Of a stretch of 64,000 nt of DNA, positions 10,001 through 13,000 are shown piece after piece. Source of the stretch: a virus (taxonomy: Duplodnaviria > Heunggongvirae > Uroviricota > Caudoviricetes). Position numbers: made by a program. The DNA is taken from IMG/VR virus record IMGVR_UViG_2721755728_000011. One strand, written 5' to 3'. The stretch's first letter is position 1, and every line of letters begins with the position of its first letter.

Positions 10001-13000
10001 GTACCAAGATAACGCGCGCTGGTTTCAACCTGCCTGATATCCGCAATCCGTTTTTCCGAGAACCAGAACTCAAACTGTACCGTCGGGTCATAAACCGCAA
10101 GATGCGGCGTGGCGGTTATCTGAAAATAGCCCGGCGTCAGCTCAATCCGCGACGGCGCTGCCGGTGCGGCAATCCGGAACGATACCGACGCCGGATCGCC
10201 CTGCTGCCCCCACGCATTTACTGCCCGGACTGTCAGCCTGTAGTTCCCCAGAGCCAGTTGTGTGAAGCGGTAAGTGGTTTCCGTCGTCCGGGCCGTGCTG
10301 ACCAGCCGCTCACGGCCGTCATCCGCTGCCACGGTCAGGCGAAGCAGGAAGCTCACGCCCTTCACCACCTTCGGCGTGTCCCAGCGCGCCAGCACCTGGT
10401 ATTCCCCGCTGTCTGCGGTGACTTCTGCGGTCAGGTGCTGCACCGCTGGCGGCGTGACACCATTTACCGTGCCGCTCTGGTCGCCGTCAAAGTGCGCCCC
10501 GTTATCCACGATGGCCTCTTTTTCCGGTACATGCTGCACGGCGGTGATGGCATACGTGCCGTCGTCGTTCTCACGGATACTCACGCAGCGGAACAGGCGC
10601 TGGCGCAACGTCGGCAGCTTCAGCCCCCATACGCTGTATTCAGCAACGCCGTCAGGAACACGGCTCACTTTCACCTTCACGCCGTCGGTGACGGACTGAA
10701 CCTCCACGCTGACCGGACTCCCCTGCCCGTCAACCAGGCTTATCAGCGTGGTGCCGGAAGATGGCAGCGTGATTTCACGGTCGAGCGTCAGCGTCCGGGT
10801 CTGGCTGTTTACCGCCAGCACGCGCCCGCCGGTGCGGATACCGGCATAGTCATCATCGCAGATTTCAATGACATCGCCCGGTACATGGCGAAGCCCTTCG
10901 GCACCCACGCTGAAGTCCACGGTCTGCGTTTCCAGCAGTTCTGTTTTAATCAGCCACAGCCCGGCGCGGTGTGCCTGCCCCCGGCTGGTACAGCCAAAAG
11001 CATCCATCTTCGTGACGTTACGACCGTAACGGGCAATGGCCTGCGTGTTCTCCACAAGCTCTGTCGCCGTCTCCCAGCCGTTATCCGGGTCAATCCAGTT
11101 CACCTCAACGGCATTATGGCGGTCCTTCAGGGCGCTGAAGCTGTAGCGGAACGGCGCACCATCATCCGGCATCACCACATTACTGCGGTTATAGGTCCAC
11201 ACCTTATCCGACGGTCGGTCCTGCACGAACGTCAGCGTCTGCCCGTTCCATACCGGCATACAGCGCATCGCAGAGCAGAAATCACTGAGCACATCCCACG
11301 CCTTGCGCTGTGTGGTCAGGTACGCATTACAGGTGATGCGCGGCTCCGTGCCGCCAAAACCGTCCGGCACCGACTGATCGCAGTACTGGCCGATGACATA
11401 CAGCGCCCATTTGTCCACATCCGCCGCACCAAGACGTTTCCCCATGCCGTAGCGCGGATGGGTCAGCATATCCCACAGACACCAGGCCATGTTGTTGCTG
11501 TATGCTGGCTTAAACGTTCCGTCCCAGATACCGCTGTATTGCCGCGTCTGCGGGTTATAGTTCGACGGCACCTGCAGAATGCGCCCGCGCAGATGATAAT
11601 TACGGCTCACCTGCTGGCTGCCGAACTGCTCCGAATCCACCTGCACGCCGACCAGTGCCGTGTTCGGGTAGCCCTGTTTCACATCGATAATTTCGGTGTA
11701 TGACGACCAGAGCGTTTTGTTCTGCAGCTGGTCTGTGGTGCTGTCCGGCGTCATCCTGCGCATCCGGATATTAAACGGGCGCGGCGGCAGGTTATCCACC
11801 ACCACCGAGGCCAGATACTGCGAGGTGGTTTTGCCCTTAATGGTGATGTCTTTTTCCGTCACCCAGCCACCATTACGCTGTATCTGAACCAGCAGGCGGA
11901 CTTCCGACGGATTCCTGTCCCCCTTTGAGGTGGTTTCCACCAGTGCCTGCACGCCGAAAGTAAAACGCAGACGGTCAATGTTTGCCGACGTGATGGTCCG
12001 GGTGATCGGCGTGTCATATTTCACTTCCGTACCCAGCACCGTCTCGGAGCCGGAGGATTCAAAGCCCTCAGGCGGTGTCTGCTCCTGCTCACCTGCCCGG
12101 AACACCACCGTGACGCCGGAGATATTGGCATTCCCCTCACTGTCCAGCACCGGCGTACTGTTCAGCAGCACGCTTTTTAATCCATCCACCGGACCTTCAA
12201 CCGGCCCTTCGCTGATGGCATCGATCACACTCAGCAGCTGCGTGGACTTCAGGTTGTCCTTCGCTTCGCGCGGGGTATGCCCCTTACTGCTACCTTTACC
12301 CATTCCTCACACTCCATAAACAACAAAGCCGCCCAAAAGGCGGCTCATGAGTTACGGCAGGATTAACTATTATTTACATGCATTAACACTATCAGCAAAA
12401 ATTTTTGGCGTTAATGCTGGTACGCGTTCATAAAGAGTAAAACTACTGCCATTTCCTGCTTTTTTGATATCAAGCACAACATCATACCCACCCATAGCCT
12501 GTGGAACTAAAAGGCTTACCCCATTCTCAATAGGAATGGATGTTATAGGTGTTCCATTACCAGCCCATTGTCTGGATATGCAGCCTGACAATTCATCAAT
12601 ATTTTTTAATGAATTACCTTCCATTACAGGCTTGCCGGATTTTACGTAATCCAAAGATTTACATCCTGTTAAGGCAATAATCGTGCAGAATAAAATCGTT
12701 TTGTTCATATAGCTAACCAACAGAATAATTATCAGTGTTCGATATAAATATTAAATCAGTTAGAACATGAGTAAATAATATTACCGCCCAATTACCACAA
12801 CCTGACCACCATCCCCTTCATCTGCCGTGCTGATCTCCTGAGATGCCACACGTGACCCCACGCGCATTTCACCGTACAGAACAGGCAGGACATTGCCCTG
12901 GGCAACCATGTTATCCAATGAGGAAAAATAGGTATTTTGCTTACCGTTATCAGTGGCTGACACTTTAGGCGTTTTGGCTTTCGGTGCCAGCATCTGCGCA

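What the first reader, a model, noticed from the sequence alone, without database searches (positions are those of the whole stretch)
12304..12780. Lipoprotein gene inserted between tail genes I and J
In lambda, I is followed directly by J. Here a ~0.45 kb AT-rich insertion encodes a lipobox protein (LTGC). Candidate functions include superinfection exclusion at the receptor (Cor-like logic) or a surface or virulence factor.
Basis: partly seen in the sequence, partly recalled or inferred. Interest (0 to 1): 0.45.

Follow-up and report, generated by a model that had tools for sequence, protein, structure and literature searches.

The report
Uncharacterised prophage lipoprotein gene between I and J
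A small, conserved gene for an outer-membrane lipoprotein of unknown function has been added between tail genes I and J of this E. coli lambda-like prophage; it is a real accessory gene of a catalogued but unstudied phage family, probably involved in keeping other phages out, but it is not matched to the phage's own receptor as Cor is.

Summary
On the minus strand, 12370-12708 encodes a 112-aa protein with a short signal peptide and the lipobox LTGC (Cys16). It lies in about 430-450 bp of low-GC DNA (0.35, against 0.56 in J) between I and J. Lambda and a 99.7%-identical E. coli prophage lack this insert.

The gene is real. It matches PHROG 914 (unknown function) over its full length. It has 116 homologue clusters with invariant Cys16 and Cys43 and nearly invariant Cys111. 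The AlphaFold model is confident, synonymous changes outnumber non-synonymous ones, and 336 of 5426 complete E. coli genomes carry it.

It has no Pfam, NCBIfam, PADLOC or PDB sequence match and no demonstrable homology to Cor, Llp or Bor. All 112 enterobacterial relatives whose neighbours I could read (out of 117 loci) lie inside lambda-type tail modules, in three slots (T|H, K|I, I|J), on the tail-gene strand. Seven of the eight homologue genes examined, one from each of eight loci, are followed by a terminator-like hairpin. Distant relatives are ordinary chromosomal lipoproteins.

One allele travels with at least four different J receptor-binding ends, and HK140, mEpX2 and Fraca carry both cor and a family member.

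My best guess, at modest confidence, is an envelope-level exclusion factor that is not matched to the phage's own receptor. The function is untested.

The parts
12370..12708 (-). Coding sequence of the 112-aa prolipoprotein (stop codon included), a member of PHROG 914. The mature protein is about 97 aa and 10.3 kDa, with pI about 7.9.
   Evidence: ORF list; PHROG 914 full-length match; same ORF annotated in RefSeq; homologues; AlphaFold2 pLDDT 84 with order helix, strand, helix, four strands, helix; purifying selection; mature-protein properties.
12664..12708 (-). Signal peptide, residues 1-15: n-region MNK and h-region TILFCTIIA (mean Kyte-Doolittle hydropathy 2.68 over residues 4-13).
   Evidence: Sequence, hydropathy, same architecture in homologues.
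12661..12672 (-). Lipobox L13-T14-G15-C16. Cys16 would be the lipidated first residue of the mature protein. Residue +2 is Lys, not Asp, so outer-membrane sorting by Lol is expected.
   Evidence: Sequence. Cys16 is invariant in 113 aligned family members. 'GCKSLD' is invariant in the enterobacterial clade. The sorting rule is established knowledge (Tokuda and Matsuyama 2004, cited in PMC4936722).
12580..12582 (-). Cys43 codon. Cys43 is invariant across the family and lies in helix 37-50. It is the inferred disulfide partner of Cys111.
12376..12378 (-). Cys111 codon. Cys111 is conserved in at least 90% of the family and lies at the end of the C-terminal helix 103-111.
12709..12780 (-). 72-nt AT-rich spacer (GC 0.24) between the I stop and the lipoprotein start. 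It holds a weak promoter-like site: TTTACT (12775-12770), 16 nt, TAATAT (12753-12748). The Shine-Dalgarno sequence is poor (GGTTAG).
   Evidence: The tool's stricter consensus scan found no minus-strand promoter. Both hexamers are invariant in 58 copies. Promoter function is not shown.
12316..12346 (-). GC-rich hairpin (GAGCCGCC-TTT-TGGGCGGCTT) followed by TGTTGTTTAT. It is terminator-like and lies between the lipoprotein stop and the ribosome-binding site of J.
   Evidence: Terminator scan; fold with z-score -2.6. The same hairpin, with one compensatory A-T to G-C change, stands at the empty I-J junctions of lambda and the C3 prophage. Seven of the eight homologue genes examined, in all three slots, are followed by a comparable hairpin and T-run; the Klebsiella phage locus L003 has none.
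12353..12780 (-). Extent of the inserted (moron) DNA relative to empty I-J junctions.
   Evidence: Alignment with lambda, eight-way junction alignment, BLAST against the near-isogenic C3 ssrA prophage.
12781..13422 (-). Upstream flank: tail assembly protein I.
   Evidence: Pfam PF06805, E 1.7e-23.
8806..12303 (-). Downstream flank: tip attachment protein J (1165 aa). Its C-terminal 165 aa are 97% identical to J of phage 434.
   Evidence: Pfam domains; tblastn against phage genomes. That this J type uses OmpC as receptor is my own knowledge of phage 434, not tested here.

Best explanation
Shown: the interval holds a genuine accessory ('moron') gene that moves horizontally. It sits in the late tail operon between I and J, on the same strand as the tail genes.

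Its product has every sequence feature of a bacterial prolipoprotein: a 15-residue signal peptide and the lipobox LTGC. The predicted mature protein is about 10 kDa, with a compact alpha+beta domain and two conserved cysteines.

The protein belongs to PHROG 914 (function unknown). Every enterobacterial member whose neighbours could be read lies inside a lambda-type tail module. More distant relatives are ordinary chromosomal lipoproteins of other proteobacteria.

Inferred from established lipoprotein rules: the protein is exported by Sec, lipidated at Cys16, cleaved by signal peptidase II and sorted by Lol to the outer membrane (residue +2 is Lys). Cys43 and Cys111 form a periplasmic disulfide.

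Inferred function (my committed guess, about 0.35-0.4): the lipoprotein acts at the cell envelope to exclude incoming phages. It would be made in the lysogen, during late lytic growth, or both.

It would not act as a mask matched to its own phage's receptor-binding domain. It would either disable one particular envelope component, whatever receptor its carrier uses, or block a step after adsorption that is common to lambda-type tail tips. Precedents for a post-adsorption block are HK97 gp15 and the Gram-positive lipoprotein Ltp, whose published target is the tape-measure protein.

The hairpin after the gene would stop prophage-state transcripts from running into J. Q-antiterminated late transcription would read through it.
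For: The gene is real and conserved.

Lipoprotein features are present.

Moron anatomy fits the published definition in PMC3594210:
- extra DNA relative to lambda and to a 99.7%-identical prophage;
- deviating GC content;
- a terminator-like hairpin after seven of the eight homologue genes examined, in all three slots.

Linkage to the tail module:
- 69 IMG/VR loci of the close clade. In 63 the gene lies between I and J, or next to J or I at a contig end; L064, L072 and L073 are K|I; L065, L068 and L070 are T|H.
- In L066, L067 and L069 the slot could not be read.
- 34 IMG/VR loci of a second clade: 32 K|I, while L126 and L127 have tape-measure matches on one side and M about 2.2 kb away on the other, so their slot is unclear.
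- Further members in Enterobacter and Citrobacter, Kluyvera, a metagenomic prophage, Klebsiella phage, Fraca and HK140.
- In every locus where neighbours could be identified, the gene lies inside a tail module on the tail-gene strand.

The T|H slot is the very slot of the HK97 gp15 exclusion moron. Like this family, gp15 has non-phage bacterial homologues (PMC3594210).

Characterised phage lipoproteins that are not lysis proteins are mostly exclusion factors. Examples are Cor, Llp and Ltp (PMC4936722; PMC11990801; PMC3952083).

Evidence against matching to the phage's own receptor:
- one allele travels with at least four J C-terminal types;
- the gene co-occurs with cor in HK140, mEpX2 and Fraca.

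The clade-invariant motif PQAMGGYDVVLD and the tether CKSLD-V persist at about 50% overall identity. This suggests a conserved binding partner.
Against: - No functional data of any kind exist. The literature searches found no study of this family, and every database names it 'hypothetical protein', 'Phage protein' or 'Lipoprotein'.
- It has no similarity to any PADLOC defence model.
- Expression in the lysogen is unproven. There is only a weak promoter-like site (8 of 12 consensus positions), none at the tool's threshold, and a poor Shine-Dalgarno sequence.
- In the K|I slot the gene starts only about 30 nt after K. That leaves no intergenic room for a promoter and fits late-operon co-expression as well as a prophage function.
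- The hairpin is also present at empty I-J junctions, so it is not specific to the insert.
- None of 50,697 deposited phage genomes carries the E. coli allele.
- Confinement to tail modules could reflect inheritance by module exchange rather than function.
Confidence: 0.38

Rival explanations
1. Cor/Llp-type receptor mask. The lipoprotein binds and inactivates the outer-membrane receptor recognised by this prophage's own J. That receptor is presumably OmpC, because the J tip is of the 434 type. The effect would be to prevent superinfection and/or loss of progeny on cell debris.
For: It is predicted to be an outer-membrane lipoprotein encoded next to J. Small siphoviruses place exclusion factors next to the J-like fibre and receptor-binding genes (PMC11990801). 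Authors of a Pseudomonas phage genome made the same guess for a lipoprotein gene next to I (PMC4936722).
Against: - The identical allele is linked to at least four different J C-terminal types, with 13, 7, 2 and 1 loci among 24 loci with a complete or near-complete J.
- The gene lies at the 5' end of J, or at K|I or T|H, rather than beside the receptor-binding end.
- Three cor-positive phages also carry a family member.
- It has no homology with Cor beyond the signal peptide and none with Llp.
Confidence: 0.12
2. Lysogenic-conversion factor that benefits the host rather than acting on phages. This would be a Bor-like or Flpp3-like envelope lipoprotein that alters serum resistance, adhesion, envelope stress tolerance or lipid handling.
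For: - It is carried by many pathogenic strains, such as O55:H7 CB9615, O104:H4 HUSEC2011, APEC O1 and the effector-bearing prophage of strain C3, but also by commensal and environmental isolates.
- Distant relatives are chromosomal lipoproteins unrelated to phages.
- Lambda's own late-region morons bor and lom are of this kind (PMC3594210).
Against: - It has no sequence relationship with Bor or with DUF3568/Flpp3.
- The fold match is weak (TM about 0.5, 6-9% identity) and generic.
- A host-benefit gene would have no reason to be confined to tail modules in three different slots.
Confidence: 0.2
3. A late lytic-cycle helper that is co-transcribed with the tail genes and has no role in the lysogen. 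For example, it could change the dying cell's envelope so that released virions are not wasted on debris or vesicles, or it could tune the envelope before lysis.
For: - It always lies on the tail-gene strand inside the late operon.
- In the commonest slot (K|I) it follows K by about 30 nt and has a strong Shine-Dalgarno sequence, as expected for an operon member.
- There is no convincing promoter of its own in the window.
- Llp and Cor are credited with protecting progeny from debris (PMC11990801).
Against: - Protection against debris should again be matched to the receptor, and it is not.
- A terminator-like hairpin directly after the gene in seven of the eight homologues examined makes most sense if the gene is transcribed without antitermination.
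- Close relatives do well without it: lambda, ev081 and the C3 ssrA prophage.
Confidence: 0.15
4. Selfish or decaying cargo with no current function, or a mis-called ORF.
For: - Three of 69 IMG/VR copies are frameshifted (L061-L063).
- Truncated or garbled database entries exist.
- The E. coli allele has a poor Shine-Dalgarno sequence.
Against: - Synonymous variant sites outnumber non-synonymous ones, 11 to 6.
- Cysteines and motifs are conserved at 20-50% identity.
- The predicted fold is confident.
- 330 of 336 E. coli genomes carry a full-length copy.
Confidence: 0.03

Closest known systems
Cor (phi80, N15, HK022, T1, mEp167; phrog_1119), a superinfection-exclusion lipoprotein that inactivates FhuA
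   Same: It is a small phage-encoded lipoprotein encoded within the tail-gene region of siphoviruses. It is dispensable for growth and predicted to go to the outer membrane.
   Different: - No homology beyond the signal peptide and about 15 residues.
- Cor is about 77 aa; this protein is 112 aa with a different predicted fold.
- Cor lies downstream of J near the fibre genes; this gene lies at I|J, K|I or T|H.
- This gene is not tied to one receptor type.
- Both occur together in HK140, mEpX2 and Fraca.
Llp of phage T5 (lytic conversion lipoprotein, PDB 8a60)
   Same: It is an outer-membrane lipoprotein encoded beside the receptor-binding protein gene. Llp contains a disulfide, according to my own knowledge.
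   Different: Only the signal peptide aligns (E 0.43), and Llp is not among the structural matches. Llp is specific for the receptor (FhuA) of its own phage, and T5 is virulent.
HK97 gp15 moron (YebO-like inner-membrane exclusion protein)
   Same: - Both are morons inside the tail operon.
- The T|H slot used by this family in Enterobacter and Citrobacter prophages is the gp15 slot (PMC3594210).
- Both have non-phage bacterial homologues.
- gp15 excludes phages without blocking receptors, which is the model I favour here.
   Different: gp15 is a small inner-membrane protein, not a lipoprotein, and has no sequence relationship to this family. Its function has been demonstrated; the function of this protein has not.
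Ltp of Streptococcus thermophilus phage TP-J34
   Same: It is a prophage lipoprotein that blocks DNA injection independently of the receptor. The tape-measure protein has been identified as its target (PMC3952083).
   Different: Ltp comes from a Gram-positive host, is tethered to the cytoplasmic membrane and is encoded in the lysogeny module. It has no sequence relationship to this family.
Bor/Iss (lambda bor, PF06291)
   Same: It is a lambdoid late-region moron that encodes an outer-membrane lipoprotein of about 10 kDa.
   Different: There is no Pfam match, and bor lies next to the lysis genes. Bor confers serum resistance; no such data exist for this protein.
Flpp3 (Francisella tularensis lipoprotein, DUF3568; PDB 6pny, 2mu4, 9nlt)
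   Different: Identity is 6-9%, and there is no sequence-profile match. The similarity is at the level of a common fold that is also shared with DUF302, KA1 domains and the BamC N-terminal domain.

Membership tests
Bacterial lipoproteins (substrates of Lgt, LspA and Lnt) | N-terminal signal peptide with a basic n-region and a hydrophobic h-region, ending in a lipobox [LVI][ASTVI][GAS]C | tested here: met
   MNK / TILFCTIIA / LTGC. Mean hydropathy over residues 4-13 is 2.68. The cysteine is invariant in 113 aligned homologues.
Bacterial lipoproteins (substrates of Lgt, LspA and Lnt) | Actual lipid modification and cleavage by signal peptidase II | not testable with these tools
   Requires palmitate labelling, globomycin sensitivity and a C16A mutant.
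Outer-membrane (Lol-sorted) lipoproteins of Enterobacteriaceae | No Asp at position +2 of the mature protein | tested here: met
   The mature N-terminus is C-K-S, and 'GCKSLD' is invariant in the enterobacterial clade. Localisation itself was not tested.
Moron (Juhala/Hendrix definition as given in PMC3594210) | Extra DNA absent from closely related phages at the same position | tested here: met
   Absent from lambda and from a prophage that is 99.7% and 99.5% identical on either side.
Moron (Juhala/Hendrix definition as given in PMC3594210) | GC content different from surrounding genes | tested here: met
   0.353 against 0.55-0.57.
Moron (Juhala/Hendrix definition as given in PMC3594210) | Own terminator | tested here: inconclusive
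   A hairpin and T-run stand directly after the gene and after seven of the eight homologues examined. The same hairpin is also present at empty I-J junctions.
Moron (Juhala/Hendrix definition as given in PMC3594210) | Own promoter and expression from the repressed prophage | tested here: inconclusive
   Only a weak site, TTTACT-16-TAATAT, was found, and nothing at the tool's threshold. Expression is not testable here.
PHROG 914 | Full-length match to the family profile | tested here: met
   E 5.7e-33 over residues 1-112 of 112 and profile positions 1-118 of 118. Relatives in all three slots also match the profile, and two chromosomal relatives match it only weakly (E about 1e-4).
Cor superinfection-exclusion proteins (phrog_1119) | Sequence homology over the mature protein | tested here: not met
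   No phrog_1119 hit for the window protein. hhalign aligns only 30 columns, covering the signal peptide and the start of the mature chain.
Cor superinfection-exclusion proteins (phrog_1119) | Association with one receptor specificity (FhuA-dependent phages) | tested here: not met
   At least four J C-terminal types occur with one allele. The window's J has a 434-type tip. The family co-occurs with genuine cor genes.
Cor superinfection-exclusion proteins (phrog_1119) | Blocks adsorption to lysogens | not testable with these tools
   Needs adsorption and plating-efficiency assays.
T5 Llp | Sequence or fold similarity to Llp (PDB 8a60) | tested here: not met
Bor/Iss (PF06291) | Pfam profile match | tested here: not met
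   No Pfam family matched at E <= 0.1. PF06291 is not among the five families matched, each by a single member, when 113 family members were scanned.
DUF3568 / Flpp3 | Sequence-profile membership | tested here: not met
   No Pfam match and no PDB sequence match, even at E 10. There is fold-level resemblance only.
Known anti-phage defence proteins (PADLOC-DB 2.0) | Match to any model | tested here: not met
   No family matched at E <= 1 for four family members.

The most novel reading that the evidence does not exclude
PHROG 914 is a new class of phage-encoded outer-membrane lipoprotein that excludes lambda-type siphoviruses after adsorption, whatever receptor they use. It would do so by intercepting a conserved tail-tip or tape-measure component as it crosses the outer membrane and periplasm. 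That would make it an outer-membrane counterpart of HK97 gp15 and a Gram-negative analogue of Ltp. It would also explain why the family is confined to tail modules and coexists with Cor.
Probability: 0.18. Interest if true: 0.6.

Novelty: new variant of a known kind. Interest (0 to 1): 0.35.

Why it matters
About 6% of complete E. coli genomes carry this gene, including O104:H4, O55:H7 and APEC strains, and the exact protein is on at least 1000 contigs in the public collection searched. Everywhere it is labelled 'hypothetical', and in some older annotations it was not called at all.

If it is an exclusion factor, it would affect which temperate and therapeutic phages can infect these strains. 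It would also add a lipoprotein mechanism not matched to the carrier phage's own receptor to the short list of envelope-level defences in Gram-negative bacteria. If instead it is a host-fitness factor, it would be a lambdoid conversion gene alongside bor and lom.

Either way it is cheap to test: one 339-bp gene and a phage panel. The pair formed by this window and the near-isogenic empty-site prophage of strain C3 is a natural control.

Tried and rejected
Searches that found nothing:
- Pfam, NCBIfam and PADLOC scans of the protein and of 113 family members. The only NCBIfam hit was the VirB7 signal peptide at E 0.084.
- PDB sequence search with the family profile, which returned only signal-peptide or chance matches.
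- tblastn of the E. coli protein against 50,697 phage genomes. There was no close copy, only hits of about 30% identity in Fraca and LMessi.
- Five literature searches found no functional study. The LF82 prophage transcriptome paper lists no such gene, and I did not check whether LF82 carries it.

Searches limited by the tools:
- The Foldseek afdb50 library was not installed.
- The single genome-contig scan returned only one species representative, a Kluyvera.
- The look-up of encoding contigs had no record for P0006.

Items rejected or left without a conclusion:
- P0030 (1047 aa, 5 stretches) in the representative search is a repetitive false positive.
- P0002, P0007, P0012 and P0013 are frameshifted or garbled entries and were left out of the alignments.
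- Plus-strand ORFs 12464-12649 and 12549-12680 and the plus-strand promoter-like site at 12373-12402 are consistent with chance: 1 site found against 2.1 expected.
- I considered a virion or tail-assembly role and rejected it, because an exported lipoprotein cannot take part in cytoplasmic tail assembly.
- I considered an o-spanin role and rejected it. The gene is not embedded in or next to an i-spanin gene, and in the related strain C3 prophage (L074) the lysis genes are annotated elsewhere.
- A promoter comparison across slots gave no conserved motif that could be separated from coding constraints at the 3' end of K.
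Full report
**1. What is there**

All the tail genes in this part of the window are on the minus strand.
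- J is 8806-12303 (1165 aa, with the full set of gpJ Pfam domains).
- I is 12781-13422 (PF06805).
- K is 13320-14096 (JAB plus NlpC/P60).

The gap holds one minus-strand ORF, 12370-12708, encoding 112 aa: MNKTILFCTIIALTGCKSLDYVKSG.... RefSeq annotates the same ORF as hypothetical protein WP_153274582.1.

GC falls to 0.353 in the insert and 0.236 in the 72-nt spacer upstream of the ORF. It is 0.562 in J and 0.553 in I.

**2. It is an insertion**

Alignment with lambda shows that homology stops at the I stop codon. It resumes at a GC hairpin about 45 nt upstream of the J start, leaving about 430 nt unmatched.

A better control turned up by chance. A prophage at ssrA in E. coli strain C3 compares with the window as follows:
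- 99.7% identical over window 1-12334;
- 99.5% identical over 15723-28000;
- it lacks 12335-12784 (the lipoprotein gene);
- it lacks 14039-15722 (an ant/arc cassette);
- the I-K segment between these two gaps is only 86.7% identical.

The window therefore carries a replaced mosaic block. The two insertions are independent of each other, because O55:H7 CB9615 has the lipoprotein gene without the ant cassette.

**3. The gene is real**
- It matches PHROG 914 (function unknown) end to end, E 5.7e-33.
- An exhaustive profile search of 1.84 billion representative proteins found 116 clusters. Nearly all are proteins of 105-125 aa with a lipobox.
- In an alignment of 113 of them, Cys16 and Cys43 are invariant, and Gly63 and Cys111 are nearly so.
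- AlphaFold2 gives mean pLDDT 84, with values above 88 over most of the mature domain. The order of elements is short helix, strand, helix 37-50, four strands, helix 103-111.
- Among 13 E. coli alleles in 58 copies there are 11 synonymous and 6 non-synonymous variant sites. My rough estimate of dN/dS from these counts is about 0.2.
- The insert is present in 336 of 5426 complete E. coli genomes at 95-100% identity, and 330 of these cover at least 80% of it.
- The exact protein is on at least 1000 contigs of the public collection searched. It is always named 'hypothetical protein', 'Phage protein' or 'Lipoprotein'.

**4. What the sequence says about the protein**

The n-region (MNK), the h-region (mean hydropathy 2.68) and the lipobox LTGC fit the lipoprotein signal. 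The alignment shows that the start lies upstream of the lipobox.

The mature chain starts C-K-S. Under the +2 rule this predicts Lol-dependent transfer to the outer membrane; that rule is established knowledge and localisation was not tested.

Cys43 and Cys111 lie in the two long helices and are conserved across the family, so I infer a disulfide.

Within the enterobacterial clade (47-61% identity to the window protein), the tether GCKSLD-V and the stretch P-AMGGYDVVLD are invariant. That hints at a conserved partner.

**5. What it resembles**

By sequence it resembles nothing that has been characterised.
- Pfam, NCBIfam and PADLOC give no family.
- The PDB sequence search gives only signal-peptide matches, including T5 Llp at E 0.43.
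- Profile comparison with Cor aligns 30 columns, covering the signal peptide and the start of the mature chain.

By structure the best matches are as follows.
- Among viral models, a Pseudomonas phage phiAH14a protein: TM 0.70/0.83 at 25% identity.

This is a common small alpha+beta fold. I draw no function from it.

**6. Where the family lives**

In the 69 IMG/VR loci of the close clade:
- 63 have the gene between I and J, or next to J or I at a contig end, in E. coli lambda-like prophages;
- L064, L072 and L073 have it between K and I;
- L065, L068 and L070 have it about 3.5 kb upstream of M;
- L066, L067 and L069 could not be placed.

Called genes in Enterobacter and Citrobacter prophages show that the position upstream of M is the junction between the chaperone gene T and the tape-measure gene.

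Kluyvera, a metagenomic prophage, Klebsiella phage ST846-OXA48phi9.1, Fraca, HK140 (gp19) and mEpX2 carry it between K and I.

A second scan seeded with the HK140/Klebsiella subgroup gave 34 more loci. Of these, 32 are K|I, while L126 and L127 lie among tape-measure matches and their slot is unclear.

In every locus where neighbours could be identified, the gene lies inside a lambda-type tail module on the tail-gene strand.

By contrast, relatives at 20-28% identity are single chromosomal genes in unrelated neighbourhoods: next to an ECF sigma factor, a catalase, or an OmpA-like protein. Some of these genomes are named Rhodanobacter.

This is the pattern reported for HK97 gp15, a cellular protein family captured by phages (PMC3594210).

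**7. Transcription signals**

A hairpin (9 pairs, 6 of them G-C) followed by TGTTGTTTAT lies between the lipoprotein stop and the ribosome-binding site of J. Seven of the eight homologue genes I examined, across all three slots, are followed by a GC hairpin and a T-run.

The same hairpin also stands at the empty I-J junctions of lambda and the C3 prophage, with one compensatory A-T to G-C change. It is therefore a feature of the junction as much as of the insert.

Upstream, the tool's consensus scan finds no minus-strand promoter. A position-weight scan finds a weak site, TTTACT-16-TAATAT, at 12775-12748, and both hexamers are invariant in 58 copies. The Shine-Dalgarno sequence is poor.

In the K|I slot the gene starts about 30 nt after K with a strong Shine-Dalgarno sequence. 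I cannot tell whether the gene is expressed in the lysogen, late in infection, or both.

**8. Test of the Cor-like idea**

If the lipoprotein masked the receptor used by its own phage, it should co-vary with the receptor-binding end of J. It does not.

Among 24 loci with a complete or near-complete J, a lipoprotein that is 98-100% identical is paired with four C-terminal types in 13, 7, 2 and 1 loci. One further J appears to be cut short.

The window's type is 97% identical to phage 434 J. From my own knowledge, phage 434 uses OmpC.

HK140, mEpX2 and Fraca carry both cor and a PHROG 914 gene. The window has no cor.

Known exclusion lipoproteins of small siphoviruses sit beside the receptor-binding genes (PMC11990801). 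This gene sits 3.5 kb or more from the receptor-binding end of J.

These results weigh against a mask matched to the phage's own receptor. They do not exclude a mask for one fixed receptor that is kept whatever the carrier uses.

**9. Most likely mechanism**

I commit, at about 0.38, to an outer-membrane lipoprotein that excludes incoming phages without being matched to its carrier's receptor-binding domain. Three lines of reasoning support this.
- Characterised phage lipoproteins that are not lysis proteins are mostly exclusion factors: Cor, Llp and Ltp.
- Across deep divergence the family is confined to tail modules, and it shares a slot with the gp15 exclusion moron.
- There are precedents for exclusion that does not depend on the receptor. 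gp15 depends on tail features, and Ltp's published target is the tape-measure protein.

All of this is inference.

The rivals, with my estimates:
- a host-fitness conversion factor, 0.20;
- a helper that acts only late in the lytic cycle, 0.15;
- a Cor-type mask of the phage's own receptor, 0.12;
- non-functional cargo, 0.03.

**10. Novelty and verdict**

The gene family is already catalogued as PHROG 914, and others have noted lipoprotein genes next to I and guessed a Cor-like role (PMC4936722). No member has been studied.

It is a moron-encoded lipoprotein, which is a known kind. It belongs, however, to a protein family unrelated to Cor, Llp or Bor, occupies unusual slots, and is not coupled to receptor specificity.

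I rate it a new variant of a known kind, of moderate interest. It is common, easy to test and unexplained, but it would not surprise a specialist.

Noticed in passing
window 14039-15722: A second insertion, between K and L. It is a P22 immI-like cassette: antirepressor Ant (14112-15158, minus strand; P22_AR_N and P22_AR_C domains), a small Arc-family gene (15106-15279, minus strand) and a divergent Arc/Mnt-family gene (15347-15706, plus strand). GC is 0.44. It is absent from the near-isogenic C3 ssrA prophage and from O55:H7 CB9615, but present in the C3 prophage next to torT.
   Followed up: partly
window 12316-12346 (minus strand); L004 (lambda) about 765-800; L092 about 15316-15346: A GC hairpin and T-run lie directly 5' of the J ribosome-binding site. 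The structure is conserved at the empty I-J junctions of lambda and the C3 prophage, with one compensatory A-T to G-C change relative to the window. Similar hairpins follow seven of the eight PHROG 914 genes examined, across all three slots. It may be a terminator read through by Q-modified polymerase, an RNA-stability element, or a short conserved sequence at which modules are exchanged.
   Followed up: partly
window 8806-9303 (minus strand): The C-terminal 165 aa of J are 97% identical to phage 434 J and 100% identical to J of several Stx2 phages and of mEp460_ev081. Other prophages with the same lipoprotein allele carry quite different J ends, only 41-45% identical.
   Followed up: yes
window 40-402 (plus strand) and 573-4019: A tmRNA gene (ssrA, 295.8 bits) lies at the left end, so the prophage sits at ssrA. 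By comparison with strain C3, the next genes are a BRO-N protein, an HTH plus ImmA/IrrE pair and a GIY-YIG protein, followed by tail-fibre assembly, side tail fibre and lom genes.
   Followed up: partly
window 4132-4330 (minus strand): A full-length match to Rfam RF02111 (IS009, 225.9 bits) lies inside the tail-fibre-assembly ORF (4089-4673).
   Followed up: no
L094 (HK140) 6995-7336 and 12586-12819; L002 (Fraca) 7001-7336 and 12579-12812; L096 (mEpX2-like): These laboratory temperate coliphages carry both a PHROG 914 lipoprotein (between K and I) and cor (downstream of J). They are ready-made material for testing whether the two lipoproteins do different things.
   Followed up: partly
L061, L062, L063 (about 3279-3613 or 6001-6338): Three of 69 IMG/VR copies of the E. 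coli lipoprotein gene are interrupted by frameshifts. Several database proteins (P0002, P0007, P0012, P0013) are the resulting garbled products.
   Followed up: no
L126 and L127, about 5700-9900: In two IMG/VR contigs the family member has matches to the tape-measure protein just upstream and M about 2.2 kb downstream. This suggests a slot within or beside a split or unusual tape-measure region.
   Followed up: no
window 9955-11703 (plus strand): A 582-aa ORF lies antisense to J. I take it to be a by-product of the high GC content and codon bias of J rather than a gene.
   Followed up: no
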